A stretch of DNA of 39,950 nt from Candidatus Kaiserbacteria bacterium (GCA_023264445.1 JAHFMN010000001.1:135928-175877); one strand, 5' to 3'. Positions 3,998 to 19,553 are shown, counted from the stretch's first letter. The notes: generated by a model from the letters alone, not told the origin. Translations and numbers: made by a program.

Positions 3998-5338
3998 TTA
4001 GTAGCGCTCCTGGACGAAGGTGAGGGCCTTGCCCTTCAGCGTGGCGCGGCCGGTACGGCCGATGCGGTGCACATAGTCCTCATACGTAGACGGGAGGTCG
4101 TAGTTAATGACGTGCGAGACAGCTGGGATGTCGAGGCCGCGCGCGGCGACGTCGGTCGCCACGAGCACCGTCACCTTCCCCGCCTTGAAGGCCTCCAGAG
4201 CCCTCTGGCGCGCACCTTGGGTTTTATTGCCGTGGATGCTCTCCGCGTGGACATGCAGGCGGGAGAGTGCCTTAGCAAGTTTCTCCACACCGAACTTCGT
4301 TCGTCCGAAGACGAGGACGCGGCTAAACTCGCGGTCCTTGAGAAGTTCGGCGAGCACCTCAAATTTGTCTTTACCGCGCGGGATGCGCACGACGTCTTGA
4401 TCGACGTTTTTTGATGTGTCGCGTGTTTTAACTGAAATGATGACCGGACTCGAAAGGAAGTCGCCGATGAGCTTCTCGATATCCTTTCCCATCGTTGCAG
4501 AGAAGAAGAGCGTATGGCGCTCCTTACGCATCTTGGAGAGGATGAGGCGCATGTCGTCGATGAAGCCCATGTCGAGCATGCGGTCTGCCTCGTCGAGGAC
4601 AACCGTGCCGAAGTCAGTGAGCACGAGCGCCCGGCGCTCGAGCAAGTCCTTCAGACGGCCAGGGGTGCCGATGACGAATGCCGGGTTGTGCTTAAGCTGG
4701 GTTATCTGCGGGCCAATATTTGCACCACCGACGGCCACCATGCCGCGGAAGCCGAGGCCTTTGGCAAAACCAGCGAGTTCCTTCTCTATTTGCACCGCAA
4801 GCTCGCGCGTCGGCGCCATGACGAGTACGCGCTCACCCTTCTGCTTCATCACCTTATCGATAAGCGGGATGAGGAAGGCCGCAGTCTTGCCCGTACCAGT
4901 CTCTGCGAGACCGACGACGTCCTGGCCGAGAAGCGCATGCGGAATCGCCTTGTCCTGAATCGGCGTCGGGTTCTCGTACTTGCGTGCGAGCACGTTCGCC
5001 TTCAGGTGCGGATTGATATCGAAATCGGAGAACGTGTGTTCAGGGACGAATACCGGCTCCTCGGTCGTGACGACCGTCTTGTTCATAAACTTTGCGATCT
5101 CGCTTTCGGTCTCGCCGAAGACACCGAAACCGCCGCGCTTCCCTCCCCCGCGTCCGCCAGAACCGAAACCGCCACGTGCACCATACCCGCCACGAGACGG
5201 AAAGCGGCTTCCGCTTCGACTACCGAAGCGACTCGGGCCTGCACCGCCGCGTCCGGACGGACGCGGCGAATACGGTCGGTTTGAACTACCGCCATGAGAA
5301 CTGCCTCCCGTTTGATGATTCCAACGTCCTACTTGCAT
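3998..5338 (-). CDS. DEAD-box RNA helicase with Gly/Arg/Ser-rich N-terminal extension
   Basis: PTPIQ, AETGTGKT, PTRELA, TPGR, DEAD, SAT, HRIGRTGR. Confidence 0.96.
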   Translation of the reverse strand: MQVGRWNHQTGGSSHGGSSNRPYSPRPSGRGGAGPSRFGSRSGSRFPSRGGYGARGGFGSGGRGGGKRGGFGVFGETESEIAKFMNKTVVTTEEPVFVPEHTFSDFDINPHLKANVLARKYENPTPIQDKAIPHALLGQDVVGLAETGTGKTAAFLIPLIDKVMKQKGERVLVMAPTRELAVQIEKELAGFAKGLGFRGMVAVGGANIGPQITQLKHNPAFVIGTPGRLKDLLERRALVLTDFGTVVLDEADRMLDMGFIDDMRLILSKMRKERHTLFFSATMGKDIEKLIGDFLSSPVIISVKTRDTSKNVDQDVVRIPRGKDKFEVLAELLKDREFSRVLVFGRTKFGVEKLAKALSRLHVHAESIHGNKTQGARQRALEAFKAGKVTVLVATDVAARGLDIPAVSHVINYDLPSTYEDYVHRIGRTGRATLKGKALTFVQERY

Positions 5339-5419
5339 ATTGTTATAAAGCTAGAGAAATAAATTAAATACAGAAAGGCAAAAGCCTCCTCAAATGAAGT
5401 CTGCTCTCGTGTTGAAAAG

Positions 5420-5737
5420 TTAGGAGATCGAATCGATCTTTACTTTCAGGATCGGCTGGCGGTGGCCTTTGCGCTTATAGTAGCGGCTCTTCGGCTTATA
5501 TTTCACCACCTCAATTTTCTTATCCAATCCGGCGAGAACAACGGTGCCCTTGACCTCCGCGCCCTTGATAACAGGCGCGCCGATGGTCGTGTCCGAGCCG
5601 TTGTCGACGAGGAGCACCTCGTCAAAGACAACTGTGTCACCTTTCTTCAAATCCCCCGGGAGCTTCTCTATAGCGATAGTGTCGCCCTTAGAGACGACAT
5701 ACTGCTTCCCGCCGGTCTTGATTACGGCCACTTCCAT
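5420..5737 (-). CDS. rplU: 50S ribosomal protein L21
   Basis: AVIKTGGKQY...KRKGHRQ. Confidence 0.97.
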   Translation of the reverse strand: MEVAVIKTGGKQYVVSKGDTIAIEKLPGDLKKGDTVVFDEVLLVDNGSDTTIGAPVIKGAEVKGTVVLAGLDKKIEVVKYKPKSRYYKRKGHRQPILKVKIDSIS

Positions 5738-5775
5738 AGTGGGAGAACTATAGCATTCAAGCGGTAAAAAAACAA

Positions 5776-5793
5776 GGCGGACCGGAGTCCGCC
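5776..5793 (-). terminator. Intrinsic terminator of the 5813-6145 gene
   Basis: GGCGGAC/GTCCGCC stem followed by TTGTTTTTTT on the minus strand. Confidence 0.75.
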
Positions 5794-5812
5794 AATGAAA
5801 GTCTGCCGCAAG

Positions 5813-6145
5813 TCATACTGCGTTGGCCGCGCGCATTCCTCGGCCTTTTTTGACCACCTTTTTCTCTACCGCCTCCGCGAGACCCATTCGCTTCCTCCTC
5901 AAGAAGGGCCACGGCTTGATGGGACCGTACATGCCTTCCCTGAAGAAGACCTTGAACTCGAGCTGGCCCGACGCCTCGTTCTTGAGGAGTTTCGGGATGA
6001 GGGAATAGTCGCACGCCCAGAGATCGCGCACCTTTCCATCTTGGCACAGAACGTCCTTATGGGCATTTTCTGCTCCCAACTCCGTGGCGATCACCTCGTT
6101 CGTGTGACCCGTTGCTTCTATGAACCACTTCTTGGTTGCGGGCAT
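5813..6145 (-). CDS. Hypothetical protein (110 aa)
   Basis: AGGAGG SD, TTGACG-16-TATAGT promoter (6205-6178) and its own terminator. Confidence 0.75.
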   Translation of the reverse strand: MPATKKWFIEATGHTNEVIATELGAENAHKDVLCQDGKVRDLWACDYSLIPKLLKNEASGQLEFKVFFREGMYGPIKPWPFLRRKRMGLAEAVEKKVVKKGRGMRAANAV

Positions 6146-8895: not shown

Positions 8896-8970
8896 GGCCC
8901 TATCGTCTAACGGTTAGGACACATCCTTCTCAAGGATGGAATCAGAGTTCGATTCTCTGTAGGGTCACCA
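8896..8970 (+). tRNA. tRNA-Glu (CTC)
   Basis: GGCCCTA/TAGGGTC acceptor stem, CATCC-TT CTC AA-GGATG anticodon arm, CAGAG-TTCGATT-CTCTG T arm, ACCA end. Confidence 0.95.
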
Positions 8971-10477
8971 AACGATTTGAACCACCATCAGATGGAGTTT
9001 TTACCTTGTAGATAGGTGATAATTCAGCGGTTTTAAATCCAGGATACTGGTACTCAAGGTTTTGAGGAAAGAAGAGTGGCAACAAAACTCTCAGCTCACC
9101 AGGCTCCAATTCTTTCCATTGATTCTGGAAATCTCGCACCACCCCCACAGCGAACTCCAGCATTGAATCTACCGAAGACTCTGGATTGCCAAGTTCCCGA
9201 TATCTCTCCTCCATCTCACGGATGTTGTTTTTACGCTTTGCTGCTTGCGTCATGTAATCAACATTATCAATAACACCATCCATACGCAGTTCCAATAAAT
9301 TCTCCAGTCCTTTTTCTAACTTCTTCAATGTGCGCTTAATCTTGAGTGCTTCTGTGACATTTTCTTTCTGTGTCCTCTCATGAACTACCAGCAATGTTTC
9401 TACAAGAGCGTTGAGAACAGCATCATTTGGGGTAATGTTTCTTACATACTCAGTAAAGTCTCTCTCAAATATTTCCTTTGCCACACTTCCTTTCTTTGGG
9501 CACTCTGGATTTATACAACTGTAATAGGCGTACTTCTTAGTCCTTCCTTTTACAAAACCTCCTGTCATGTGTCTCCAGCAATAGCCGCACTTCAATCCTC
9601 TTAAAGGAAAGTCAGGATTATTCCGATTGCGAGGGGCTTTTCTGCTCTTGTCTCCTCCCCTCATGATCCACTGCGTCTGCTCATACAGCTCTTCTGAAAT
9701 TATTGGCGTGTGCTTGCCTAACACATCTACACCAAGTTTTGGAATCACAACTCTGCCGTAATAGGCAGGATTTCTCAGAATTCTATAAACAAGCTGCTTG
9801 CTTATTTGAAGGTCGTGTTTGCTACGAGCGTTTGTAGTTTTCCTTATCTTGCGAGCTAGTTCTCTGAAAGTAATGGTTCCTCTTGAATATTCCTCATAAA
9901 TGAATTTCACGATTGGTGCCCGTTCTGGGTGTGGAATTATAATTTTCCTTTCGTTCACTATGATGTTTTTGTAGCCCCAAGGAGCCCCAGTAGGCCAATA
10001 ACCCTCAGAGGCTCTCATTCGCATGCCCGCCGTGGTTCTTTCAGAGCGCACAGCATTATCATATTCAGCTTGTGCTGCGAGGATACTTTCAGAGAATTTC
10101 CCCTGTGGTGTGTTCTCAATATTTTCCGTTGCTGATTTCAACTCCACACCATAATCTTTGAAGAACTTGCGAATGGTGTGGTAGTCCAGTGAATTGCGAG
10201 CGAATCTATCTACTTTGTAGATGATGAGATAGCCGACCTTGTCTCTGTTGCTGAGGCAATACCTCTGCATGCGAGCAAGTGCTGGACGCCCAAGAGTTTT
10301 TGCAGAAACCCCTTCTTCTCTAAAGATCTCCAATATCTTCAACCCCTCACGGTTAGCAAGTTCTCTGCAGGATTTCTCTTGACCTGCTAGGGAAAAATTA
10401 TAAGTCTGTTCCTCAGACGATACACGCACATAGATTATTGCTGTTCTTGGTCGTTTATCTGATGTTAAGTTTTCCAT
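8942..10477 (-). CDS. Large serine recombinase (integrase), integrated-state form
   Basis: YVRVSS catalytic Ser, DRFAR, recombinase domain (APWGY, GKHTPIISEELY), zinc ribbon (LKCGYC...YYSC..EC), coiled coil; the stop codon lies inside the tRNA antisense. Confidence 0.95.
   Translation of the reverse strand: MENLTSDKRPRTAIIYVRVSSEEQTYNFSLAGQEKSCRELANREGLKILEIFREEGVSAKTLGRPALARMQRYCLSNRDKVGYLIIYKVDRFARNSLDYHTIRKFFKDYGVELKSATENIENTPQGKFSESILAAQAEYDNAVRSERTTAGMRMRASEGYWPTGAPWGYKNIIVNERKIIIPHPERAPIVKFIYEEYSRGTITFRELARKIRKTTNARSKHDLQISKQLVYRILRNPAYYGRVVIPKLGVDVLGKHTPIISEELYEQTQWIMRGGDKSRKAPRNRNNPDFPLRGLKCGYCWRHMTGGFVKGRTKKYAYYSCINPECPKKGSVAKEIFERDFTEYVRNITPNDAVLNALVETLLVVHERTQKENVTEALKIKRTLKKLEKGLENLLELRMDGVIDNVDYMTQAAKRKNNIREMEERYRELGNPESSVDSMLEFAVGVVRDFQNQWKELEPGELRVLLPLFFPQNLEYQYPGFKTAELSPIYKVKTPSDGGSNRLVTLQRIEL
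8960..8968 (+). repeat. att core, left junction (TAGGGTCAC)
   Basis: 3' end of tRNA-Glu, identical to 16506-16514. Confidence 0.85.
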
Positions 10478-10576
10478 AGCGATATAGTCCTTATCACGCC
10501 TCCCTTAATTTCCGCTCGTTTTTGCGAAAGAATCAAGGGGAGGCAAGATGTGGGAAGTTTGATTAGTGGGTGGAAA

Positions 10577-10593
10577 TTGGTTTATAAACCCAA
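10577..10593. repeat. 17-bp site TTGGTTTATAAACCCAA, copy 1
   Basis: Contains the perfect palindrome GGTTTATAAACC; identical copy at 13631-13647. Confidence 0.8.
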
Positions 10594-10597
10594 AAAC

Positions 10598-10810
10598 CTA
10601 ATCCGGTGGGCTCCGTCCCTCTCCACACTCTGTTTCTTGTTTAGGAGCCAGTTTTGGGTGTTTAGGTGTGTGGCGTACCCAAGTTCTATGAAGTTCTTCA
10701 GCTACAGCGAAGAACTTATCAACTAGGTCGCCATCTTCTATCTGTTTTCCCGATAATCCAGCCTGAAGAAGCGCATTTTTAATACGCTCCCTCTCATGAG
10801 GGAGAAGCAT
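10598..10810 (-). CDS. Small hypothetical protein upstream of the integrase (70 aa)
   Basis: ORF co-oriented with the integrase; N-terminus resembles the adjacent 45-aa ORF. Confidence 0.65.
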   Translation of the reverse strand: MLLPHERERIKNALLQAGLSGKQIEDGDLVDKFFAVAEELHRTWVRHTPKHPKLAPKQETECGEGRSPPD

Positions 10811-10819
10811 GGCTCTGAA

Positions 10820-10957
10820 TTAACGGCTGTATGAGCGAGCCACCACGCAATTGATAATGCCGTCAATAAGTGCCTCCTTCTCTTCGTTGGAGTAGCGGCG
10901 TTTTGTTCTGTCTAGGAGAATATCCTTCAATCTCTTTCGTTCAAATGGATTAAACAT
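10820..10957 (-). CDS. Small hypothetical protein (45 aa, not in the ORF track)
   Basis: Manual translation MFNPFERKRLKDILLDRTKRRYSNEEKEALIDGIINCVVARSYSR*, ending 9 nt before the next ATG. Confidence 0.6.
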   Translation of the reverse strand: MFNPFERKRLKDILLDRTKRRYSNEEKEALIDGIINCVVARSYSR

Positions 10958-10982
10958 AATGAACTTATTGCCCCGAACATAT

Positions 10983-11236
10983 GCTGTTTCAAAAATGAAA
11001 ACAGCCTAATGTCCGAAAGCGATTACCAGCCCCATGGATGGAGCTAACGAGGTAATCACTTCAAGGCATTAAGCTGTCTCCGATCAGTCCTGGCTCCCGT
11101 GAGGGCTCACCAAGCTGCATGGACTTTTTTCCTGACCCCGGAAGTTATAGCAACTCAGCCGGTCTAGGAGCTCATGCGTCGGGTTGTCCCGATGGTGTCA
11201 ATAAAAGTGTTTTCCATTTACCAGAACGAATCTGGC
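10983..11236 (-). ncRNA. Multi-hairpin leader/sRNA ending in a terminator-like stem
   Basis: Five successive hairpins after a TTGCAC-16-TAAAGT promoter (11270-11243); the final long stem 11077-11001 is followed by UUUCAUUUUU. Confidence 0.55.
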
Positions 11237-11271
11237 ACTTCTACTTTAACAAATCAATATTTTGGTGCAAG

Positions 11272-11294
11272 TTCTACAGATATCTTTTGTAGAA
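11272..11294. promoter_or_regulatory. Inverted repeat, candidate operator
   Basis: TTCTACA-N9-TGTAGAA abutting the leftward -35 box, between divergent units. Confidence 0.45.
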
Positions 11295-11336
11295 AATTAG
11301 GATAAAATGGGGGTGTTACCAGCTAAGAAATCCAAT

Positions 11337-11504
11337 ATGGCAAGCGGCAAGCACTCAAAGTCATTCAAGCTTGGACGAGATGCTCTTACTGGGGAATTTG
11401 TTCCCGTTGCACAAGCAAAGAGAAGCCCGGGACGATATGTCATTGAGCATGTTCCCAAAGCAGGTCACGGAGATGTTCCGAGGTTGCATAAAAAGCACAA
11501 GTAA
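11337..11504 (+). CDS. Small basic protein with GRDAxTGxF motif
   Basis: KLGRDALTGEFVPVAQAKRSP...VIEHVP; 55 aa from ATG 11337. Confidence 0.7.
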   Translation: MASGKHSKSFKLGRDALTGEFVPVAQAKRSPGRYVIEHVPKAGHGDVPRLHKKHK

Positions 11505-11553
11505 GAGAACTCTGTGTTTATTTTAGTTGCGCGTTTCATTTAATCAGTTCTGC

Positions 11554-12252
11554 ATGACCGAGGAGGAACAAATCGCACTAATTAAGAAACGAGAGGAGTG
11601 TGTAGAGAAGTATTTCAAGCACCATCGTGCAATCCAGACACTTAAGAAATTATCTGGAGATAAGCCCTTGACTCGCAAACAGGAGGTTTTAAGCGAATAT
11701 GGACGCTGGTTAGCACAGGTTGAATCCGCCCACTCCAGACTTGAGAGATATCCTATTTGGCTATCTTCCACAAATTCTGCTGTTGAAAGAAGAGGAATTT
11801 CACGAGTAGATCAATTCACATATCATATAGAGAACTACCTAGCCGCTGTCTATATTTTAAATGAGAGAGTCAGAAGACTGGTTAGTTATCTAGAGAAGCG
11901 AGGTGGCAGAAAACGCTGCAATACAACAACAATAGAATCTTTGCGAAAGGCTAGAAGAACATTCATGCTGTCACTAGATCCTCTTATGGAAATTAGGAGA
12001 AGACACACCCACGAAAAACACTTCAACGACAAAGAGCTCACAACGATGGAAATGGCCGATAAAGCAGGAGAATTTTCAAAAGACCCATCTGAAAAGAAAC
12101 AATTTAAGGGCTGGGCGATAATCCTACTACGCTTTCAACGCCACAGATGGAAGAAGATGTTGAAAAATAACAATCGGAATTTCTCTGTTTTACTTGGCAT
12201 GATTTACGAGCCGGCTGACAAGCTCGTATGGGAAATCTACCAAAAGACCTGA
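11554..12252 (+). CDS. HEPN-domain putative RNase (Cthe_2314-like)
   Basis: All-helical appearance, YHIENY...ER segment and R-x4-H motif (RRRHTH). Confidence 0.7.
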   Translation: MTEEEQIALIKKREECVEKYFKHHRAIQTLKKLSGDKPLTRKQEVLSEYGRWLAQVESAHSRLERYPIWLSSTNSAVERRGISRVDQFTYHIENYLAAVYILNERVRRLVSYLEKRGGRKRCNTTTIESLRKARRTFMLSLDPLMEIRRRHTHEKHFNDKELTTMEMADKAGEFSKDPSEKKQFKGWAIILLRFQRHRWKKMLKNNNRNFSVLLGMIYEPADKLVWEIYQKT

Positions 12253-12261
12253 GCTGTTGCT

Positions 12262-12290
12262 TTGCTCTACCGTCTTTATGGGGGTAAACT
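12262..12290 (+). promoter_or_regulatory. sigma70 promoter
   Basis: TTGCTC-17-TAAACT. Confidence 0.55.
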
Positions 12291-12349
12291 TCTATATGAC
12301 CTAAACCAGTGGCTTGCCGCTGGCATGGTCTCAAAATCATAGGACATGG

Positions 12350-12428
12350 AAAACCCGTCATCACGGCATGTCCTATGTTGCAGGGGGAAACTCCTGTAGA
12401 CCCGCAAGGGTTCGTGGTGGCGGGTTTT
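12350..12428 (+). ncRNA. c4-like antisense RNA
   Basis: 16-bp closing stem AAAACCCGTCATCACG/CGTGGTGGCGGGTTTT, GAAA and GCAA tetraloop hairpins, single-stranded CATGTCCTATGTT complementary to sites at 12338-12348 and 12448-12459. Confidence 0.75.
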
Positions 12429-12463
12429 GTGTTGCTTTTATTAGAAAAACATAGGACATAGTT

Positions 12464-12967
12464 ATGGACGCAAAAATCACATACGGAGTAGTTGGTACTC
12501 TGGTAGTTCTTTTGGCGGTTTCCGCATACTTCAATTTTCAATCAAAATCAGATGCCTCAACGACTGAAAATGCACAACAAGTAGAACAAACTGACACCTT
12601 GACTAGAGTAACCAGTTTATACAATCGGATGCTACCGAGTTTACCTCCGCATGACTTGTACTGTGTACCCAGCACGAAATCTTATTGCAATGTAGACGGG
12701 TGTAAGAATGTGGAGGCAAATGTCTTCGTGCTTCTAGGAAGAAAACAGAGTGGAGATAGTCTATTTATGGCTCGGTGTGATAATCAGCCCTGTGATATTT
12801 ATGACGTGAATCTCTCACAGTCTGGTGAATTTACGACCTTTGAGACAAAAGAACCTCATGGGATCTTGTTTAGGACATCTAACTTAGACCAGAGCTACAT
12901 TGAGGCTGTAACGCTAGGGACAGAATCTTTTGTTTCAAACGGTTTCTGTGCTCAGAGTAAAAAATAA
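12464..12967 (+). CDS. Membrane-anchored/secreted Cys-containing hypothetical protein
   Basis: N-terminal TM helix, six Cys in the soluble part, AGGA SD. Confidence 0.8.
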   Translation: MDAKITYGVVGTLVVLLAVSAYFNFQSKSDASTTENAQQVEQTDTLTRVTSLYNRMLPSLPPHDLYCVPSTKSYCNVDGCKNVEANVFVLLGRKQSGDSLFMARCDNQPCDIYDVNLSQSGEFTTFETKEPHGILFRTSNLDQSYIEAVTLGTESFVSNGFCAQSKK

Positions 12968-12971
12968 TGCT

Positions 12972-13517
12972 ATGAAATATCTTGCACCATTCATTCTATC
13001 GGTTCTGATGATATTCCCAGTCTCTGTATCAGCAGCAACTCTTACGCAGAATCAAATCAATGCAATTATCAGCGTTCTCATGGCATTCGGCGTTGACCAA
13101 GCAACCATAAATGCCGTGTCTCTGGCTCTTGCTCCCGTAGCACCAGAAACTAGCATAGCTCCTCTATATCAGCCACCACAGCCTGTGCTTGATACCCAAG
13201 CACCAGTTATAAATCTTAATAAACTTGCAAACTACTTCAAGACAAACAAGTTCTTCAGTAATGGTATCTATGGCACTGCAGGTATACAAGAATCAAATTA
13301 CATCAGTGATACTGGTTCTGGTGTGGCTACTGTCCAGTGGTTTGTAGATGGAGTTTCTGTTGCTCCTGCTCATGATTGGAATTATGGAAATGGAAAGTTT
13401 GCTCTTGATGTGACCAAGTATTCTAATGGCGAACACACCCTTAGAGTTACAGCAGTAGATAAAGCCGGAAATAGCAGCAGTGCATCAATCACAATAACAG
13501 TGAAGAACCCGAACTAA
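12972..13517 (+). CDS. Secreted protein with C-terminal bacterial Ig-like domain
   Basis: Signal peptide (..VSA), helical LTQNQINAIISVLMAFGVD segment, Pro-rich linker, VQWFVDG...NGEHTLRVTAVDKAGN. Confidence 0.8.
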   Translation: MKYLAPFILSVLMIFPVSVSAATLTQNQINAIISVLMAFGVDQATINAVSLALAPVAPETSIAPLYQPPQPVLDTQAPVINLNKLANYFKTNKFFSNGIYGTAGIQESNYISDTGSGVATVQWFVDGVSVAPAHDWNYGNGKFALDVTKYSNGEHTLRVTAVDKAGNSSSASITITVKNPN

Positions 13518-13630
13518 TGTTTAAAAAACAATAAAACATAGACTTCAAAATCAATTTATCTAATCCATAAATCAAAGAGAGTCGTGTTTTGAAAAACTGA
13601 TTAATAAATCAAGATATCAAGTTTGAAATT

Positions 13631-13647
13631 TTGGTTTATAAACCCAA
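13631..13647. repeat. 17-bp site TTGGTTTATAAACCCAA, copy 2
   Basis: Identical to 10577-10593. Confidence 0.8.
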
Positions 13648-13694
13648 TAATCCAATCTACAAAGCAGACGATAATCAATTACATCTCTAAACAA

Positions 13695-14744
13695 TTACCC
13701 CTGGTTCTTTATTCCCATTAAATCATTAACTATTTGCAATACTGGCGTACTGCTTTCTTTCTCGGTTTTAGATACGAAACCTATTGGCGCATGCTTGAAC
13801 ATTGATTCCGTTGCATTTTGTAACATTTCCGATAAACGAGGTTTTTCCTGTTGCTCTTCAACAGCAATGAAATCTTCCAAGGTACGAGCAACTGCTGCTC
13901 TATGGCGATTCACAGCGGCAAGATGTGAATTAACATTGTAGTTCTTCACTATAAATGAAAGTCCATACCAGAGGGAAGCAATTATCACTAGTTTAGCGAT
14001 TCCTATACTCCAAATAGCACCAGCATCTATTGCTGTCCCTGGAACAGCCGAAACCTGACTAAAGTATGAGACGGCAAGAAAGCCAAGATACCAAAGAATG
14101 CCCAACAGGATAGCGTAGCTAGCAATCACAGCCCAAAACCATTTGTCAGCCGCTTGCTTGTAGTTCCTTGTTTCTAGGTCAAAGTGTGATGCAAGACGAA
14201 CAGCGGCACGCTCTCCTTTTGCAGAGCCAACTTCTTTCCCAGCGATTCTAAGTTTCTCTGTTTCCTCACGCACCTTTTTGAGTTCATTTTCAAGATCTGT
14301 ACGAATCTGGATAACCTTTTTTACTTCCTCATCGGTCTGTTGCTGGTTTGGGTTTTCTCTGCGTCTTTCTTCACGGAGAAAAGTAAGAATCACCATTACG
14401 ATCTGTCTGTAAACAGTATCGTAAAAACCATCTACTCTTGCTTCAAAAGCATCATGCTCTTGTTTAGCATTTTGGACAGCTCCAATATCAAATTTACGCA
14501 ACCATTGAAGATGCTCTACCAGTTGATTTATCAAAGACTCCACCTGACCAGCCTCACTCCGAAGCAATAAATCTTTATATCCCAAATCATATGCCTCTTT
14601 AAGCCAGCTTTGTGCTTTGGACAGTTTCTCGTTTGCTCTATCAAATACCAAACTCCCAAAGCGACTATTATCCATGGCGAGTTTTGCCACCTTCACATCA
14701 AATACATTCTCAGCCGTTATATCTTTTTGTTCTTCAGAAGCCAT
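13695..14744 (-). CDS. Coiled-coil plus two-TM membrane protein (possibly DUF6161-like)
   Basis: Long helical N-terminus, two hydrophobic helices, NRHRAAVARTLEDF...MFKHAPIGF tail. Confidence 0.75.
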   Translation of the reverse strand: MASEEQKDITAENVFDVKVAKLAMDNSRFGSLVFDRANEKLSKAQSWLKEAYDLGYKDLLLRSEAGQVESLINQLVEHLQWLRKFDIGAVQNAKQEHDAFEARVDGFYDTVYRQIVMVILTFLREERRRENPNQQQTDEEVKKVIQIRTDLENELKKVREETEKLRIAGKEVGSAKGERAAVRLASHFDLETRNYKQAADKWFWAVIASYAILLGILWYLGFLAVSYFSQVSAVPGTAIDAGAIWSIGIAKLVIIASLWYGLSFIVKNYNVNSHLAAVNRHRAAVARTLEDFIAVEEQQEKPRLSEMLQNATESMFKHAPIGFVSKTEKESSTPVLQIVNDLMGIKNQG

Positions 14745-14832
14745 GGATTTTCATTGGAAATATTATACACTCTTACCATGTTTTACCGCATTTTTCAAGC
14801 AATAGAGCACTCTTTTGTGGTATGATTTTCGT

Positions 14833-15030
14833 ATGAAATGGATCTGGGAGAGAATCAAATTGAGCTGGGTAAATATCCTGTTGATTATCGCTATATTCTC
14901 ACTCTACATTTTCCTGTTCAATGACTATTTTGAGGTTGACCCTTATGGAGATGGTACTGCTTTCTACTATGCTTTGTGTGCTACTTTCCTTACAGTTTAT
15001 CTATGGAACAGGCAACAAATTACAAAATAA
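14833..15030 (+). CDS. Small two-TM hypothetical protein
   Basis: Hydrophobic ORF; TATGAT just before the ATG. Confidence 0.6.
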   Translation: MKWIWERIKLSWVNILLIIAIFSLYIFLFNDYFEVDPYGDGTAFYYALCATFLTVYLWNRQQITK

Positions 15031-15278
15031 TTGCTGGGTTTTTATTGCTTGTTCTTTTTCTATTGAATTTTCAACTGCATGATTCAAGAAAAGAGAACGC
15101 TATTTTGCAGGATCGGTTAGATGAATATCAATCAGCATTAAGCGAAGCTAACGACAATATTGATTCAGCAAATTCTATGATTGAAGACGCCCAGAGCTAT
15201 GCTTGGTCAAGCTATGAAGATATGGGATACGCTCTAGAGAATCTAAGCACAGTGGATACTGTGTGGGATCCCTACTAA
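15003..15278 (+). CDS. Single-TM coiled-coil hypothetical protein
   Basis: TM helix then acidic heptad-like segment. Confidence 0.65.
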   Translation: MEQATNYKIIAGFLLLVLFLLNFQLHDSRKENAILQDRLDEYQSALSEANDNIDSANSMIEDAQSYAWSSYEDMGYALENLSTVDTVWDPY

Positions 15279-15280
15279 AT

Positions 15281-15820
15281 ATGGACATTATTTACACAAT
15301 ATTAATAATTGGAGCAATCTGGTATGTTGGTAAATTGCTTTTACAACAAGCACCAACTAAACGAATTGAAAAATATGAGGAATTTGCAGAGGTGATGTTT
15401 AGGTCATATCAAACCACAAACAAAGTTTCCTTTGGCGAGGAGAAAGATCCACCAGAAGTATCCAGGATGAGGGATTGGTATATACGGCTAAAGGAAAAAT
15501 ACAAACACGACCAGACAAAACTTGTCCAGTTAGCGGAGGACTGGAAAGATTATGCTTTTAATTTAAGTAGCAAGAATATCAATCATTATCTTTGGCTAGA
15601 GGATGAGGATAAAGAAAGTAGCGATGAGCGTTATGGAAAGACACGAGAAGCACACATGAAAATAGAAGAGATTGAAAATAGATTCGCTAACATGCTTGAC
15701 CCCCAATATTATCTAGATTTGGTGGCTGAAAGAAAGAAGAAACAAGAAGAAGTTGAAGCATTTTGGGAATCTCCAGAAGACAGGCGTTATTTAAAAGAAA
15801 CACCGGCTACAGAGCCATAA
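15281..15820 (+). CDS. Single-TM hypothetical protein
   Basis: N-terminal TM, charged helical body. Confidence 0.7.
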   Translation: MDIIYTILIIGAIWYVGKLLLQQAPTKRIEKYEEFAEVMFRSYQTTNKVSFGEEKDPPEVSRMRDWYIRLKEKYKHDQTKLVQLAEDWKDYAFNLSSKNINHYLWLEDEDKESSDERYGKTREAHMKIEEIENRFANMLDPQYYLDLVAERKKKQEEVEAFWESPEDRRYLKETPATEP

Positions 15821-15840
15821 AAACAGAGTATGATGATTCT

Positions 15841-16362
15841 ATGAATACTGAAAAACCAAATGTTGGACTCGTTATACTAATCACAGCTGTCATAGTAGGG
15901 GGTGGTGTGTATTATTTTACCACTGGTGCAAAAAATCTTGATACTAATAATGCGGTTCAGACAACTTCCACACCGAATCAAACATCTAAAGAATATGCTG
16001 TAATGGGACGTCAACTTTGGAGTGCATTTCAGTGTGCGTCATGGGCTTCTGTAACGGGAGACAGCGAAGAACAAGAAAGACTTTTCTTATTTGGCTATGC
16101 GCAAGGAAAGACATTCCTTGAAGCGTTGAATTCTGAGAAGATTCAGCGAGATGACATATCTGAGAATGTCCCTATTGTAGTCACGATGCTTCTTCAAGGA
16201 CCAACGGAAGAATTTATACTGGGTAGACTTTTTGAAAATGCACAAGACAGTGCACTAAAAGATGTCTTTCAGACCGGGAATGAATATAATTCAGAGAGTT
16301 TACGAGAAATCATTGCTGGAAATAAGTACAGGGAGAGTAATTGCCAACTGATTGGAGAATAG
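15841..16362 (+). CDS. Single-TM hypothetical protein
   Basis: GLVILITAVIVGGGVYYF anchor, two Cys. Confidence 0.75.
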   Translation: MNTEKPNVGLVILITAVIVGGGVYYFTTGAKNLDTNNAVQTTSTPNQTSKEYAVMGRQLWSAFQCASWASVTGDSEEQERLFLFGYAQGKTFLEALNSEKIQRDDISENVPIVVTMLLQGPTEEFILGRLFENAQDSALKDVFQTGNEYNSESLREIIAGNKYRESNCQLIGE

Positions 16363-16405
16363 CAGGAGTTTTAACTCTATTAGGGGAGTATTTCTAACTC
16401 CTGCT
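16361..16405. terminator. Hairpin at the right end of the element
   Basis: AGCAGGAGTT/AACTCCTGCT 10-bp arms. Confidence 0.5.
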
Positions 16406-16514
16406 TGACTGGCATAAATCCACGCTTTTGGAGAGAAGCGAACTTAACGGCTGCCTTGCTGATTGCCTCCAATTGCTCCACTAAGGGTTTTGAATCTGGT
16501 ATCGTTAGGGTCAC
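16380..16514 (-). other. Detached alternative C-terminal coding segment of the integrase (joined only after excision)
   Basis: Open for 44 codons from the att core in the integrase frame: VTLTIPDSKPLVEQLEAISKAAVKFASLQKRGFMPVKQELEILP, then TAA TAG. Confidence 0.7.
16506..16514 (+). repeat. att core, right junction (TAGGGTCAC)
   Basis: Identical to the tRNA 3' end; contains the murF stop codon. Confidence 0.85.
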
Positions 16515-17785
16515 ACTTTCTGTTTCCACTTTTTTTCTTGGCGAGCAAGTTGCACCCCATCGGCGGAGTTAGCAAGCAAGGCCTCTACGATGCGCTCGGT
16601 GCGGATAGATTGCGAACCTTTCACCAGAACGACATCGCCCGCGCGAAGCTGTTCGGGGAGGATACGCGCAGCATCATATGAGTTATTACACTGTATGACT
16701 TCGGTGCCGTTCGCCGGCACAGCAAAAGCTCGAGCGCGAATTCCCACCGTAACAACGAGATCAGCTGAAGCGCTTGCGAGCGCACCAACACGTTCATGCT
16801 CCATGACCGAGTAGCGCCCGAGTTCGAGCATGTCGCCCAGGACTGCAATACGCCGCTTCGCTCGCGGGAATGCCTTCAGGGTTGCAAGTGCTTCCTCAAC
16901 CGCCGCTGGTGAAGCATTGTATGAATCGTCAATGATGACTGAACCGTTTTTTCCGGCGAGGAGACGGCCGCGGCCAGGCGGGGATTCGTAGCTCTCGAGC
17001 GCTTTGAGTGCCTCCGAAAGCGGTATTTCAAAGTCCTGCGCCGCTGCGACTGCGGCCGCAACTGGAAGAAGCTGTGTCTTCCCAACCGAACCTCGTACGA
17101 TGCAGAAACCCTCTTCTCCCCCTGCACTTACCTTTGCTTGCATGCCAGCGACCTTCCCTTCGCTCTCATAAAAATCAACATCGCTTATGCGCGTGTTTAC
17201 ATCCTCTCCGATGCCGTAAGAAATGACCCGGGCAGGCGTGCGCACTGCATTATCGAATGCATATGCATCATCGGCTAGGACGATGAGCGGTGCATTTGCC
17301 GGGAGCGCATACGCCGGGGAAAATTCTTCTTCTCGTACTGCTTCGGGTGAAGCATATGCCTCGACATGGACCGGTATCTCTGGCAAGCGAGTGACGACCA
17401 CCATGTCCGGTGTTGCGATGCGCAGTATGCCTGCGAGGTCGCCCGGCTTGTCCGCACTGACCTCCAGTACGAGCATATTTGGATAATGATTCGGTAACAC
17501 CAGGAGTGCCACCGCCCTTTTCATAAGGGAGAACCATGCAAAAGGATTCTTCCAAGGATTCTCCACCCCCAAAATAGTGAACGGCACGCCAAACTCACTA
17601 TTGAAACTCTTCTCGCTCTTCCGGACATACAGGCGCGTCCCGAGTACTGCCGCTACCGCATCTTTCGTCGATGTCTTCCCCACTGATCCGGTGATCATCA
17701 CGATGCGCGGGTGGTATCGGCGTATGACGGCGTGCGCAAAAAACGCAAGAATCAAAACGACAATTGGCTTGAGGATGCTTTTCAT
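16511..17785 (-). CDS. murF: UDP-N-acetylmuramoyl-tripeptide--D-Ala-D-Ala ligase
   Basis: ITGSVGKTSTK, SFNSEFGVP, IDDSYNASP, VLGDMLELG, LVKGS. Confidence 0.93.
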   Translation of the reverse strand: MKSILKPIVVLILAFFAHAVIRRYHPRIVMITGSVGKTSTKDAVAAVLGTRLYVRKSEKSFNSEFGVPFTILGVENPWKNPFAWFSLMKRAVALLVLPNHYPNMLVLEVSADKPGDLAGILRIATPDMVVVTRLPEIPVHVEAYASPEAVREEEFSPAYALPANAPLIVLADDAYAFDNAVRTPARVISYGIGEDVNTRISDVDFYESEGKVAGMQAKVSAGGEEGFCIVRGSVGKTQLLPVAAAVAAAQDFEIPLSEALKALESYESPPGRGRLLAGKNGSVIIDDSYNASPAAVEEALATLKAFPRAKRRIAVLGDMLELGRYSVMEHERVGALASASADLVVTVGIRARAFAVPANGTEVIQCNNSYDAARILPEQLRAGDVVLVKGSQSIRTERIVEALLANSADGVQLARQEKKWKQKV

Positions 17786-17798
17786 GATTGATGTTCGC

Positions 17799-19553
17799 TT
17801 ATCCCGAATGTGTCGAGACGACGCCTGCTTGTACCGGCAGGCCACGGTCAGGAGGTACAGCGTAATAGTCTATGAGGAAATGCACAAGGTCGAGAAAAGT
17901 TGAGTTCAGGGTTTCTGAAGCGTAGGTAACGCCCTTCGGGTCATTCGTGTAGAGCAAGATAATGAAGCGCGGGTTATAGGAAGGGAAGAACCCGACAAAC
18001 GAATGGAAGAACCGATCCGTGTAGTATCCACCGCCCGGCATCGTAAGCTGGGCAGTACCCGTCTTCGCCGCCACCGACATAGTGGGGATCTTTGCCTTGC
18101 CGTCGTTGAGTTTCTCATCAACGACTGCATCCATCATGCTCGTTATCTCGCGAACGGCTGTCGATGAGAAAACTTGCGTCGTCTTCCCCCAGTCAAGCGT
18201 GCGCTCTATGCCCGAATTAAGACGTACGGCGCGTACCAAATGCGGCGTCACCATCGTGCCTCTGTTTGCGAGCGCACCGAGCGCGCGCATCATCTGTATC
18301 GGCGTTACGGCAATACCCTGTCCGAAAGCCGCCGTATCGTAGCCGATCTGCTGGGGCTTCGAGAGATTGCTCAAGAGCGCATGTCCCTCGTTTGGCACGT
18401 CAATGCCTGTCTTCGTTCCAAACAGCTTCGTAAAGTATGCTCGGAAGGAATCCTGTCCGAGCTCGGTCGCTACCCATGCCGCGCCGAGGTTCAAAGACTG
18501 CACAATGACCTGCTTCATCGGGACGACGCCGCGCGCCTTTAAATCCCAGTTGCAGATGCTTGCGGTATTCACGGTGATACAACCCGTATCGGTATAGGTC
18601 GTCTCCGGCGTGATGACGCCTGCATCAAGCGCCGAGGTCAGCGTCAGAGGCTTCATGATGGAGCCAAACTCATGCACGTGCTCCACAAGTGGGTTGCCGA
18701 GCAGAGTCGGATCTACTTCTTGCAGATTATTGCCGTCGTAGGTCGGATAGCTTGCAAACGCAAGGATCGCACCAGTCGTGGGATCCATGATGATTCCCCC
18801 CGATTCTTTACTCGAATAGCGCTGTGTAACTTTCGTGAGGTCGTCCTGAAGGCGCGTTTGCACCTCCGGCTCGATAGTGGTTATGACGTCGCCCTCGCGC
18901 GCATCCTGCGCCAAGACAAGCAGATTACCGACATTTGAAAAAAGTTCCGCAAAGAAATTCTTATACAGCGAGTCCCCCGAGCGTTCGAGTGAATCATTGT
19001 ATGTCGCCTCAAGGCCAGTCTGGCCGGAGAGTGTATCGCTCGAGCCGTACGACACGATGCCAATTGCCTGTGCAGCGAGCGCACCTCCGGGATACAACCG
19101 CCATCGCTCGCGCAGTACCTGTACACCTGGGATGTGTTTCGCATCGAGCGCCTTTCCCTCTTCGTCAGAGAGACGATGCGCGATTTCGATATGGACTTGC
19201 GATTTCTTCGAAGCGGCCGCGAGGAACGCGTCATGCGAGAGTAGGCCGGGAACGACGGCTGTTATCGAAGCATACGCGCCTTCAGGGTCGCTAAGAATCT
19301 GTGGGTTTATCGCTACAAGAAAGCCGGTTGCAAGCGTCGCTGCGGAGATAAGCGTGCCGTCCTTGCGAGTGAAATAAATGGATCCGCGATCAAAGAGTCC
19401 ACTTCCACCTGAAGCAAATTGCCGATCAGCCTTTTGCGCATAGTCCTGTCCACGGACGATTTGTATGAAATACAGCCGAACGATGATGCTTAGCGCAACG
19501 AGGAAGACGAAAACGAGGACGAGGCGCAGGCGGAAACGGAACTGCGCGCGCAT
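17799..19553 (-). CDS. ftsI: Class B penicillin-binding protein (FtsI-like)
   Basis: N-terminal TM, RGSI, GSIMK (SxxK), SLN, KTGTAQ; position in the dcw cluster. Confidence 0.88.
   Translation of the reverse strand: MRAQFRFRLRLVLVFVFLVALSIIVRLYFIQIVRGQDYAQKADRQFASGGSGLFDRGSIYFTRKDGTLISAATLATGFLVAINPQILSDPEGAYASITAVVPGLLSHDAFLAAASKKSQVHIEIAHRLSDEEGKALDAKHIPGVQVLRERWRLYPGGALAAQAIGIVSYGSSDTLSGQTGLEATYNDSLERSGDSLYKNFFAELFSNVGNLLVLAQDAREGDVITTIEPEVQTRLQDDLTKVTQRYSSKESGGIIMDPTTGAILAFASYPTYDGNNLQEVDPTLLGNPLVEHVHEFGSIMKPLTLTSALDAGVITPETTYTDTGCITVNTASICNWDLKARGVVPMKQVIVQSLNLGAAWVATELGQDSFRAYFTKLFGTKTGIDVPNEGHALLSNLSKPQQIGYDTAAFGQGIAVTPIQMMRALGALANRGTMVTPHLVRAVRLNSGIERTLDWGKTTQVFSSTAVREITSMMDAVVDEKLNDGKAKIPTMSVAAKTGTAQLTMPGGGYYTDRFFHSFVGFFPSYNPRFIILLYTNDPKGVTYASETLNSTFLDLVHFLIDYYAVPPDRGLPVQAGVVSTHSG

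What the first reader, a model, noticed from the sequence alone, without database searches (positions are those of the whole stretch)
8942..16514. Serine integrase that rewrites its own C-terminus on integration/excision
Seen: the att core TAGGGTCAC reads GTG ACC CTA (V-T-L) in the integrase frame. Integrated, the protein ends NRL-VTL-QRIEL* (511 aa), with the last codons read from the antisense of the tRNA T-arm. At the far end of the element the same core continues in the same frame for 41 more codons (TIPDSKPLVEQLEAISKAAVKFASLQKRGFMPVKQELEILP, then TAA TAG at 16382-16377), filling the otherwise unexplained gap up to the last cargo gene. Excision would therefore give a 547-aa form with an amphipathic-looking helical tail. 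Known: att sites inside genes occur in SSV1-type tyrosine integrases and in the mycobacteriophage BPs repressor; serine integrase directionality normally depends on the coiled coil plus a separate RDF. Inference: the swapped tail may be a built-in state sensor setting directionality, activity or stability. A 41-codon open stretch can occur by chance, so this needs homolog support.
Basis: partly seen in the sequence, partly recalled or inferred. Interest (0 to 1): 0.9.

Follow-up and report, generated by a model that had tools for sequence, protein, structure and literature searches.

The report
Serine integrase swaps its own tail
A small mobile element in a tiny bacterium carries an integrase gene that its own insertion reaction cuts near the end, so the enzyme has a conserved 41-residue helical tail only while the element is free and loses it once inserted in a tRNA gene; many related elements share this design.

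Summary
A 7,546-bp low-GC element (8969-16514) sits in the 3' end of the only tRNA-Glu(CTC) gene of a 632-kb Patescibacteria-type genome. It is flanked by the 9-bp core TAGGGTCAC. A same-genus genome has the empty site.

The element's large serine integrase (511 aa) takes its last 5 codons from the tRNA antisense strand. At the far end the core continues in the same frame for 41 codons. That tail is not a chance ORF:
- A profile of four tails found 24 true relatives among 1.84 billion proteins. Most are orphan ORFs; a few are joined to an integrase C-terminus.
- Two full-length long forms exist (557 and 543 aa).
- A second integrated element (51% identical integrase) has the same layout.
- Distant relatives in tRNA-Arg and tRNA-Gln also have an in-frame tail at the far end.

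The tail is an amphipathic helix. A complex model (ipSAE 0.74, controls 0.00) docks it in a conserved hydrophobic groove at the base of the coiled coil, near where directionality factors bind known serine integrases. A state-dependent regulatory role is therefore plausible but untested.

No read-level excision junction was found. No published description turned up in eight searches. The element also carries a LOOT RNA.

The parts
8896..8970 (+). tRNA-Glu(CTC), the integration target. It is the only tRNA-Glu(CTC) in the genome and stays intact after insertion.
   Evidence: ARAGORN; Rfam tRNA 59.9 bits; whole-genome tRNA list.
8960..8968 (.). attL copy of the 9-bp core TAGGGTCAC (3' acceptor strand, discriminator and first C). 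The inferred crossover dinucleotide is TC at 8965-8966.
   Evidence: 2 matches, 0.11 expected. The dinucleotide is inferred from the symmetry of the flanking arms read.
8942..10477 (-). Large serine integrase, integrated (short) form, 511 aa.
   Evidence: Pfam Resolvase 2.8e-32, Recombinase 8.2e-12, Zn_ribbon_recom 23.7 bits against a cut-off of 25.3.
8942..8959 (-). Last five codons (QRIEL) and the TGA stop of the short form, read from the antisense of the tRNA T-arm.
   Evidence: Sequence. 69 of 120 homologs end in comparable T-arm antisense motifs.
8969..8993 (-). Inferred P arm of attP inside the integrase 3' end (codons ..GGSNRL), containing ATCGTT.
   Evidence: the same AAATCGTTT(G/T)GTGACC is seen in the window, G193 and L206. 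Its extent is inferred from the usual ~50-bp size of serine integrase attP sites.
10598..10957 (-). Two small paralogous ORFs (70 and 45 aa) directly upstream of the integrase. They are a candidate regulator or directionality factor.
   Evidence: A 52-aa relative lies upstream of the G193 integrase. No family match.
12298..12412 (+). LOOT RNA (Rfam RF03000) carried by the element.
   Evidence: 78 bits against a gathering score of 46.4. Conserved in the G193 element.
11307..16362 (.). Cargo ORFs without a clear family. They include membrane or secreted proteins, one with weak Ig-like domain hits.
16380..16505 (-). The 41 tail codons (TIPDSK...EILP) and the TAA stop. They are joined in frame to the integrase only in the excised (attP) state.
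   Evidence: conserved in homologs.
16482..16505 (.). Inferred P' arm of attP, which also encodes tail residues 1-8.
   Evidence: Nucleotide identity over the core plus the first seven tail codons is 0.80-0.97 between the window, G193 and G277, against 0.33-0.54 further on (sequences).
16506..16514 (.). attR copy of the core TAGGGTCAC.
16511..17845 (-). Host Mur ligase gene (murF-like). Its TGA stop (16511-16513) lies inside the core, so it is kept in both states.
   Evidence: Pfam Mur_ligase_C and Mur_ligase_M.
8969..16514 (.). The integrative element, 7,546 bp counting one core copy.
   Evidence: GC profile; empty site in same-genus G174.

Best explanation
This is a small integrative element of a Patescibacteria-type host. 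Its large serine integrase has its attP site inside its own reading frame, 41 codons before the stop.

Shown:
- Recombination with the 3' end of tRNA-Glu(CTC) splits the gene at the core.
- The integrated copy encodes a 511-aa enzyme that ends in 5 residues read from the tRNA antisense strand.
- The excised copy would encode a 547-aa enzyme with a conserved tail.
- The layout is shared by a large family of tRNA-abutting serine recombinases.

Predicted by models:
- The tail is an amphipathic helix.
- It packs into a conserved hydrophobic groove formed by the helix at the base of the coiled coil and the two helices that follow the coiled coil.

Inferred:
- Published work places directionality factors near the base of the coiled coil. 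The long form is therefore probably the integration-proficient state with that site occupied.
- The short form, made only from the integrated copy, has the groove open.
- This would change how the coiled coil or a partner (possibly the small ORFs upstream of the integrase) controls excision.
- The DNA state of the element would then set the regulatory state of its own recombinase.
For: Anatomy. An empty attB in same-genus G174 fixes the boundaries.

The tail is conserved:
- Long forms P0015 (557 aa) and P0041 (543 aa) carry it in frame.
- The second integrated element, in G193, has a 51% identical integrase that ends in tRNA-Glu antisense. A 41-codon tail lies ~5 kb away on the same strand, after the core (E 4.7e-7).
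- A profile of four tails gave 25 hits at E<=0.001 among 1.84e9 proteins, and 24 are tails.
- Alignment A3 breaks exactly after V-T-(L/P/S).
- Of 25 tails, 15 are exactly 41 aa and 18 have Pro at position 41. Hydrophobic positions 8, 9, 11, 12, 15, 18, 19 and 22 are conserved, and position 22 is Phe in 24 of 25.

The layout is family-wide:
- 69 of 120 listed homologs have T-arm antisense endings.
- 32 of 57 full-length loci have an opposite-strand tRNA over the stop codon.
- L004 (tRNA-Arg) and L019 (tRNA-Gln) repeat the in-frame layout with WN-type tails.

Structure:
- AlphaFold2 of P0015 gave mean pLDDT 89.6, with tail helix 522-535 at about 84.
- AlphaFold2 of P0077 gave a tail helix 531-551 at pLDDT 72-75.
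- The complex model of tail against integrase 150-503 scored ipSAE 0.74, 0.76 and 0.74, with a best control of 0.00. That mark was reached by 58 of 80 solved complexes and 2 of 110 mismatched pairs. The runs share at least 73% of contacts, and the partner pLDDT is at least 58.
- The groove residues are conserved and hydrophobic.

[quoted passage not shown] 33 of 34 integrase matches in related genomes have no internal stop.
Against: - No functional data exist.
- No excision or circle junction was seen. Only assembled contigs were available, and they drop rare variants.
- The DNA context of the two full-length long forms could not be fetched, so their episomal origin is not shown.
- L206 shows that an attP-like junction can sit in a chromosome without an integrase gene.
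- dN/dS is uninformative: pS is 0.63-0.73 and the ratios range from 0.20 to 0.87.
- Tail residues 1-8 may be conserved for DNA reasons.
- The last ~15 tail residues are modelled at pLDDT 51-56.
- The complex model is the model's own confidence. It used unpaired alignments of my own, so the calibration counts hold only roughly. The model may also have learned the intramolecular packing from full-length sequences.
- Candidate small regulators exist upstream of the integrase, so the tail need not be what sets directionality.
- Decayed remnants at the same site (G300, G277, L206) fit frequent trapping as well as cycling.
Confidence: 0.55

Rival explanations
1. The tail mainly controls stability. 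The free-element form carries a C-terminal degradation or recognition signal that integration removes, as with the BPs repressor. Integrase would then be short-lived after entry and stable (or the reverse) once integrated.
For: - The extreme C-terminus is conserved: Pro at position 41 in 18 of 25 tails and Glu at position 38 in 15 of 25.
- By regex, 5 of the 19 more distant tail-type homologs end in -AA. P0070 also does by eye.
- The host has a tmRNA and ClpP.
- Precedent: BPs gp33 loses an ssrA-like tag on integration, and its integrase also carries a C-terminal proteolysis signal (passages of PMC4557955).
Against: - The tail of this subfamily ends E-(V/I)-(I/L)-P, unlike the host tmRNA tag, which ends YAVA.
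- A degron does not need a 20-residue amphipathic helix whose hydrophobic face is conserved and which is modelled as docked.
- The -AA endings come from a few related clades, so they are not independent.
Confidence: 0.15
2. The tail is simply a structural part of the enzyme. The integrated form is crippled, so integration is close to one-way and excision needs long-form integrase from another copy, as proposed for SSV-type proviruses. The element then decays in place.
For: - The tail is modelled as covering a conserved hydrophobic groove. Losing it could destabilise the C-terminal region.
- Three decayed remnants lie at the same tRNA-Glu/murF site in relatives.
- No excision junction was seen.
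Against: - The short form keeps the catalytic, recombinase, zinc-ribbon and coiled-coil parts.
- 33 of 34 related integrase genes in genomes have no internal stop.
- Integrated short forms dominate the family (69 of 120), and the tails at their far ends are still intact ORFs. This fits recent or repeated cycling.
Confidence: 0.15
3. There is no functional difference. attP lies inside the ORF only because the element is compact, and both forms work alike. The tail is kept because it is part of the fold when present.
For: - The element is densely packed, with 17 nt between the tail stop and the convergent cargo gene.
- The first tail codons are constrained as the attP arm anyway.
Against: - Residues well beyond the attP arm are conserved across about 25 diverged tails. 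The length and the C-terminal motif are fixed.
- The same layout is kept in lineages that use different tRNAs.
Confidence: 0.12
4. The 41-codon open stretch is a chance ORF, or the right boundary is elsewhere.
For: A 41-codon open frame can occur by chance. The core is only 9 bp, and 2 of 100 shuffles gave two copies.
Against: - 24 homologous tails were found in a 1.84e9-protein library.
- Two full-length fused forms exist.
- G193 has a second element with the same geometry.
- The empty site in G174 matches the predicted attB.
Confidence: 0.01

Closest known systems
Large serine integrases (phiC31, Bxb1, SPbeta SprA, Listeria LI/A118 type)
   Same: - The domain order is the same: Resolvase, Recombinase, zinc ribbon, then an inserted coiled coil.
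- The best fold matches are SPbeta, Bxb1, phiC31 and LI integrase structures.
- The core is short and flanked by imperfect inverted arms.
   Different: - Sequence identity to solved structures is only 14-19%.
- The target is a tRNA gene.
- attP lies inside the integrase ORF, so the enzyme has two C-termini depending on the DNA state.
- I found neither feature described for serine integrases.
Mycobacteriophage BPs-type integration-dependent immunity
   Same: attP lies inside the 3' part of a regulatory gene. The prophage therefore makes a product with a different, shorter C-terminus than the free phage (33 residues shorter in BPs; abstract and passages of PMC4557955).
   Different: - In BPs the split gene is the repressor, the recombinase is a tyrosine integrase, and the removed piece is an ssrA-like degron.
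- Here the split gene is the serine integrase itself, and the removed piece is a docking helix with no ssrA-like end in this subfamily.
SSV1-type (fusellovirus) tyrosine integrases with attP inside the integrase gene (recalled; no paper read here)
   Same: The recombinase gene contains its own attP and is partitioned by integration into a tRNA gene.
   Different: - They are tyrosine recombinases of archaeal viruses, and the split leaves no complete enzyme.
- Here only the last 41 of 547 codons are exchanged, and all catalytic and DNA-binding domains stay together.
[quoted passage not shown]
   Same: - A polypeptide attached to the integrase C-terminus can act within the same subunit to switch direction (abstract of PMC5737554).
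- In SPbeta an RDF helix packs between DBD2 and the coiled-coil hinge (passages of PMC11722253).
- The tail here is modelled at the equivalent place.
   Different: - Those are synthetic fusions or point-mutant studies. Here the attachment and removal would be done by the recombination reaction itself.
- The SprA paper (Abe et al. 2021) was seen only as a title in a reference list and is not held.
tRNA-targeting genomic islands with tyrosine integrases (Islander class)
   Same: The element inserts in the 3' part of a tRNA gene and restores it, leaving a displaced tRNA fragment at the far end.
   Different: [quoted passage not shown]
- The repeat here is only 9 bp, as expected for a serine integrase.

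Membership tests
Large serine recombinase / serine integrase | N-terminal resolvase-type catalytic domain with a catalytic serine in a Y-x-R-V-S-(S/T) motif | tested here: met
   PF00239 E 2.8e-32, residues 13-160. Y16, R18, V19 and S20 are invariant in 45 homologs. Reading S20 as the nucleophile is by analogy (recalled).
Large serine recombinase / serine integrase | Recombinase domain (PF07508) after the catalytic domain | tested here: met
   PF07508 E 8.2e-12, 45.7 bits against a cut-off of 21.1.
Large serine recombinase / serine integrase | Zinc-ribbon domain with four cysteines | tested here: inconclusive
   PF13408 scores 23.7 bits, just under the 25.3 cut-off. However, C297 and C300 are invariant and C321 and C326 nearly so. 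The homolog model also matches solved integrases over its full length.
Large serine recombinase / serine integrase | Long coiled coil inserted in the zinc-ribbon domain | tested here: met
   The AlphaFold2 model of homolog P0015 has helices 362-409 and 415-439 at high confidence. This was modelled on the homolog, not on the window protein itself.
Large serine recombinase / serine integrase | Catalyses attP x attB recombination with a 2-bp staggered crossover | not testable with these tools
   Only the footprint is seen: a 9-bp core at both ends and an empty site in a relative.
Integration-dependent switches (BPs type) | attP inside a gene, so that integration changes the product's C-terminus | tested here: met
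Integration-dependent switches (BPs type) | The removed C-terminus carries an ssrA-like degradation tag | tested here: not met
   The tail ends EILP, whereas the host tmRNA tag ends YAVA. Some distant relatives end in -AA, so this may differ by clade.
Integration-dependent switches (BPs type) | The split gene is the immunity repressor and the recombinase is a tyrosine integrase | tested here: not met
   The split gene is the serine integrase itself.
SSV-type integrases | Tyrosine recombinase fold | tested here: not met
   Serine recombinase domains only.
LOOT RNA (RF03000), for the cargo RNA | Score above Rfam's gathering threshold over the full model | tested here: met
   78 bits against 46.4, model positions 1-121 of 121.

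The most novel reading that the evidence does not exclude
The tail is a built-in plug for the directionality site. In the free element the long integrase has the coiled-coil base occupied in cis, which locks it into integration mode and makes it insensitive to any excision factor. Integration itself deletes the plug, so the resident short integrase becomes excision-competent or factor-responsive. Direction would then be written by the DNA state of the recombinase gene. This would be a natural, self-resetting toggle shared by a large and previously unrecognised family of tRNA-targeting serine integrases, whose members often also carry LOOT RNA.
Probability: 0.3. Interest if true: 0.9.

Novelty: new variant of a known kind. 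Interest (0 to 1): 0.8.

Why it matters
Serine integrases are valued because their direction is strict, and it is set by a separate directionality factor. An integrase whose own recombination reaction swaps a docking helix at that control site would be a new way to couple enzyme state to DNA state. It could be tested directly with two constructs and four att substrates, and it could serve as a compact self-resetting switch.

The data also show that serine integrases can target tRNA genes on a large scale in Patescibacteria and beyond. A 2014 reference work said this was not known. The data further give the orphan LOOT RNA a genomic home on these elements.

There is an annotation consequence as well. 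Many 'recombinase' proteins in databases end in residues read from tRNA antisense, and many tiny 'hypothetical proteins' are displaced integrase tails.

Tried and rejected
- **Word-index searches.** A search with the tail region of P0015 found only itself. A search with the window tail against longer proteins found nothing. Both depend on shared 5-residue words and are weak evidence.
- **The search for related loci.** In genome and viral collections it returned only relatives of 38% identity or less. Closer ones came from the genome search.
- **dN/dS of the tail** (window, G193, G277). Synonymous sites are saturated (pS 0.63-0.73 beyond the arm). The ratios are 0.20, 0.87 and 0.69, so the test is uninformative.
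- **Reads.** Six runs hold part of the stretch, all kept as assembled contigs.
  - Laying X1, X2, X3 and X6 showed the integrated form contiguous in X1 and tiled in X2. There was no joint of the kind expected for an empty attB or a circle.
  - One X6 contig gives a joint from 8969 to 16483 with only 29 letters on the shorter side. It is probably from a relative and is unexplained.
  - Contigs drop rare variants, so this says nothing about excision.
- **attP-junction motif scan.**
  - It gave 0 hits in viral contigs and 1 hit in metagenome contigs.
  - The hit, L206, is not an episome. It is a chromosomal remnant with an attP-like junction and no integrase gene.
  - Its 246-aa ORF is only weakly like a window cargo ORF (pairwise E 3e-4).
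- **Cargo annotation.** Pfam and PHROGs gave no phage structural, replication or conjugation family, so the element type stays open.
- **Small ORFs upstream of the integrase.** A profile of three found a relative only in G193 among the loci held.
- **Degron idea.** The host tmRNA tag ends differently from the tail. The Lon_C match is weak at 38.7 bits.
- **Literature.**
  - Eight searches and passages of PMC12884075, PMC9580842 and PMC10083194 gave no description of a serine integrase with attP in its own ORF, or of tRNA-targeting serine integrases.
  - Subscription journals and supplements were not searchable.
  - The LOOT motif is not described in the main text of PMC5737381. Its description is presumably in supplements that I could not see.

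Full report
**What is there**

The window comes from contig 2 of a 632-kb, four-contig genome. Integrase homologs that carry a source name are labelled Patescibacteria, Parcubacteria and similar.

- Between about 8.5 and 16.5 kb the GC content falls to 0.37-0.47, against 0.52-0.60 in the flanks.
- At the left edge lies tRNA-Glu(ctc), 8896-8970 (+). It is the only tRNA-Glu(CTC) among the genome's 45 tRNA genes.
- A 511-aa ORF, 8942-10477 (-), converges on the tRNA. It has Resolvase, Recombinase and (just below cut-off) zinc-ribbon domains.
- This ORF ends ...NRL-VTL-QRIEL*. V-T-L is the reverse complement of TAGGGTCAC (8960-8968), and QRIEL plus the stop is read from the antisense of the tRNA T-arm.
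- TAGGGTCAC occurs once more, at 16506-16514, and nowhere else in the window (0.11 expected).
- On the minus strand this second copy is again read V-T-L in the same codon phase. It continues for 41 codons to TAA TAG at 16382-16377, 17 nt from the end of the last cargo ORF.
- To the right lies a murF-like Mur ligase gene whose TGA stop is inside the core.

**Boundaries**

- Same-genus genome G174 has tRNA-Glu(ctc) followed directly by ACTC..., the counterpart of the flank right of 16514 here, and then the Mur ligase gene. This is an empty attB.
- Same-genus G300 has about 207 bp between two copies of a 15-bp tRNA-end repeat at the same place.
- The element is therefore 8969-16514, or 7,546 bp. 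The tRNA and the ligase stop are kept in both states.

**The tail is real**

- *Homolog C-termini.* Of the 120 best integrase homologs listed (564 had E<=0.001 among 8,000 scored candidates):
  - 69 end in motifs such as RGIEPRF, GFEPEF or RIEL. These are the T-loop of a tRNA read backwards (regex count).
  - At least 19 by regex (about 25 by eye) end in a helical tail instead.
  - The remaining 32 are truncated or unclassified.
  - Among the 50 closest, 43 have tRNA-antisense ends, 2 have tails and 5 are other.
- *Long forms.* The two with tails, P0015 (557 aa, 49% identical) and P0041 (543 aa), continue after V-T-L with 41 residues that align without gaps to the window tail.
- *Genome search.* A six-frame search of 401 genomes of the same order with the window tail hit three, counting the window's own genome.
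  - In G193 the hit (E 4.7e-7, 52% identity over all 44 residues) lies about 5 kb upstream of a 51% identical integrase and on the same strand.
  - That integrase ends ...NRFVT-SSGFEPEFSP* inside tRNA-Glu(ctc) on the other strand.
  - The shared core there is TTGTGACC.
- *Profile search.* A profile of the four tails, searched against 1.84 billion representative proteins, gave 25 hits at E<=0.001.
  - 24 are tails and one is an unrelated repeat protein.
  - 19 are small orphan ORFs of 43-87 aa. P0140 (82 aa) is a tail followed by an integrase C-terminal segment.
  - Four are fragments in which an integrase C-terminus runs straight into the tail.
- *Alignment.* In the joint alignment the two classes part exactly after V-T-(L/P/S).
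- *Tail statistics.* Among the 25 tails caught by a regex (two more were missed):
  - 15 are exactly 41 residues and 18 have Pro at position 41.
  - Positions 8, 9, 11, 12, 15, 18, 19 and 22 are hydrophobic in 84-100% of tails.
  - Position 22 is Phe in 24 of 25.
- *Alternative frames.* Four of the five other frames of the window tail's DNA contain stops.
- *dN/dS.* It is not usable because synonymous sites are saturated.

**attP sits in coding sequence**

- Read on the integrase strand, the core is flanked by ATCGTT on the left and AACGAT on the right. These are reverse complements, 10 nt apart, centred on GA of GT[GA]CC.
- That dinucleotide lies within the identity blocks of both the window and G193. 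I infer it is the crossover dinucleotide; this is not shown.
- The right arm encodes tail residues 1-8. Nucleotide identity over the core plus the first seven tail codons is 0.80-0.97 between the window, G193 and G277, against 0.33-0.54 beyond.
- The invariant T-L-T-I-x-(D/N)-S-K-P stretch is therefore partly a DNA constraint. The case for selection on the protein rests on residues 8-41.

**A family habit**

- Across fetched loci, 57 had a match reaching integrase residue 470 or beyond with the stop on the locus. In 32 of them an opposite-strand tRNA gene overlaps the stop (within 40 nt).
- The tRNAs are Glu, Arg, Ala, Met, Lys, Ile, Gln, Ser, Phe, Cys and His.
- More distant homologs carry tails of the form WN-x-x-[IL]-x-x-EL-x-x-W.
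- Four ORFs with such tails were found in loci. All are upstream of the integrase and on its strand, at marginal E-values of 0.004-0.008.
- In two of them, L004 (tRNA-Arg, core TGGTGGCC) and L019 (tRNA-Gln, core TATGGCTG), the 8-bp core is repeated and read in the same frame at both ends.
- The window's own genome holds a second serine recombinase that reads through tRNA-Ser(gga) antisense.
- 33 of 34 integrase matches in the order-level search have no internal stop.

**What the tail may do**

- *Single-chain models.*
  - AlphaFold2 of P0015 with a 69-row alignment gave mean pLDDT 89.6. The linker 501-520 scores 55-64, the tail helix 522-535 about 84, and the last ~15 residues 51-56.
  - A WN-type long form, P0077, gave a tail helix 531-551 at pLDDT 72-75.
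- *Fold matches.* The P0015 model best matches SPbeta, Bxb1, phiC31 and LI integrase structures.
- *Complex model.* The window tail was modelled against window integrase 150-503.
  - It scored ipSAE 0.74, 0.76 and 0.74, with a best control of 0.00.
  - That mark was reached by 58 of 80 solved complexes and 2 of 110 mismatched pairs. These counts hold only roughly, because my own alignments were used.
  - The runs share at least 73% of contacts, and the partner pLDDT is at least 58.
  - This is a model's confidence, not a measurement. The two chains are pieces of one natural protein, so the pass speaks for intramolecular packing.
- *Interface.*
  - On the integrase it covers residues 354-366 (the helix after the zinc ribbon, at the base of the coiled coil), 439-449 and 456-469 (the two helices after the coiled coil), and 487-492.
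  - These positions are conserved and hydrophobic in 45 homologs.
  - The tail residues involved are the conserved hydrophobic face.
- *Published context.*
  - In phiC31 the extreme C-terminus contacts the factor (bioRxiv 10.1101/2025.05.02.651858).
  - Fusing a factor to the integrase C-terminus switches direction within a subunit (abstract of PMC5737554).
- *My reading.* Only the long form can be made by a free element, so it must be the integration-proficient form. I infer that the tail occupies the control groove in that state and that integration uncovers it. This is inference.

**Rivals**

- *Stability signal.* A conserved C-terminal E-(V/I)-(I/L)-P, -AA endings in some distant clades, and the presence of ClpP and tmRNA support this. 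Against it, the host tag ends YAVA.
- *Purely structural tail.* Its loss would cripple the resident enzyme. Three decayed remnants support this.
- *No functional difference* between the two forms.

Small paralogous ORFs upstream of the integrase, shared with G193, could be the real directionality factor.

**Limits**

- No excision or circle junction was seen, but only assembled contigs were served.
- The DNA around the two full-length long forms could not be fetched.
- L206 shows that an attP-like junction can persist in a chromosome without an integrase gene. The four short 'fused' fragments are therefore not proof of free elements.

**Novelty**

- Eight full-text searches, and passages of three recent integrase-mining papers, gave no account of tRNA-targeting serine integrases or of a serine integrase split by its own attP. 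Supplements and subscription journals were not covered.
- The closest precedents are the BPs repressor and, from recall, SSV-type tyrosine integrases.
- I file this as a new variant of a known kind.

**Seen in passing**

The element carries a LOOT RNA (RF03000, 78 bits). The same RNA lies inside the G193 element and upstream of related tRNA-abutting recombinase genes, in 5 of the 7 loci scanned.

Noticed in passing
window 12298-12412 (+); L204 4673-4781; L004 8636-8757; L011 9529-9645; L005 7563-7681; L015 2783-2899: A LOOT RNA (Rfam RF03000, an sRNA of unknown function) lies inside the element. It also lies inside or upstream of related serine-recombinase elements in 5 of 7 loci scanned; none was found in L001 or L012. 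Apart from the integrase and the tail, it is the best conserved stretch between the window and G193 elements (about 81% column identity over a 223-column alignment). It may be a hallmark of this element family, for example in replication or control.
   Followed up: partly
L162 (G000 contig 3) 1006-2682 (-) and tRNA-Ser(gga) 1066-1153 (+): A second serine recombinase in the same genome (558 aa, 30% identical) reads right through tRNA-Ser antisense (..GGGEIRTLGG..) to a stop beyond it. By eye, the next gene looks like an HTH plus S24-peptidase repressor. This is probably a second element of the same design in another tRNA.
   Followed up: partly
L197 (G300) 2921-3213: At the same tRNA-Glu/Mur-ligase site a same-genus genome has about 207 bp between two copies of a 15-bp tRNA-end repeat. 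It looks like a tiny remnant of an earlier insertion.
   Followed up: no
L205 (G277) 4973-6114: A remnant without an integrase gene: tRNA-Glu(ctc), about 1 kb with one ORF that looks by eye like a PLP-dependent enzyme, then a tail ORF and a second copy of the core TAGCGTCAC.
   Followed up: partly
L206 2605-4118: The layout is tRNA-Glu(ctc), 1.4 kb of two ORFs, then an attP-like junction (15 codons of an integrase 3' end, the core and a full 41-codon tail) directly beside the Mur ligase gene. There is no integrase gene on the locus. How this arose is unexplained; tandem insertion followed by deletions is one possibility.
   Followed up: partly
window 10598-10810 (-) and 10820-10957 (-); L204 5132-5290 (+): Two small paralogous ORFs (motif F-x-P-x-ER-x-R-x-K-x-x-LL) lie directly upstream of the integrase, with one relative in the G193 element. 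They have no family match and are candidates for a directionality factor or regulator.
   Followed up: partly
window 10577-10603 and 13631-13657: A 27-nt direct repeat (89% identical) contains the palindrome GGTTTATAAACC. One copy lies just upstream of the integrase start and the other in an intergenic gap of the cargo. It may be an operator or a terminator.
   Followed up: no
window 8967-8970 versus L194 1413-1420: In the integrated state the element supplies the bases that complete an encoded CCA end on tRNA-Glu (..GGTCACCA). The empty sites in G174 and G300 read ..GGTCACAC.. and ..GGTCACAA.., without an encoded CCA. This is probably incidental, because the G193 element does not supply it.
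   Followed up: no
window 8969 -> 16483 (run X6): One contig of a run from another study joins the tRNA end to the start of the inferred P' arm, with 29 letters on the shorter side. It probably comes from a relative carrying a minimal remnant and is unexplained.
   Followed up: no
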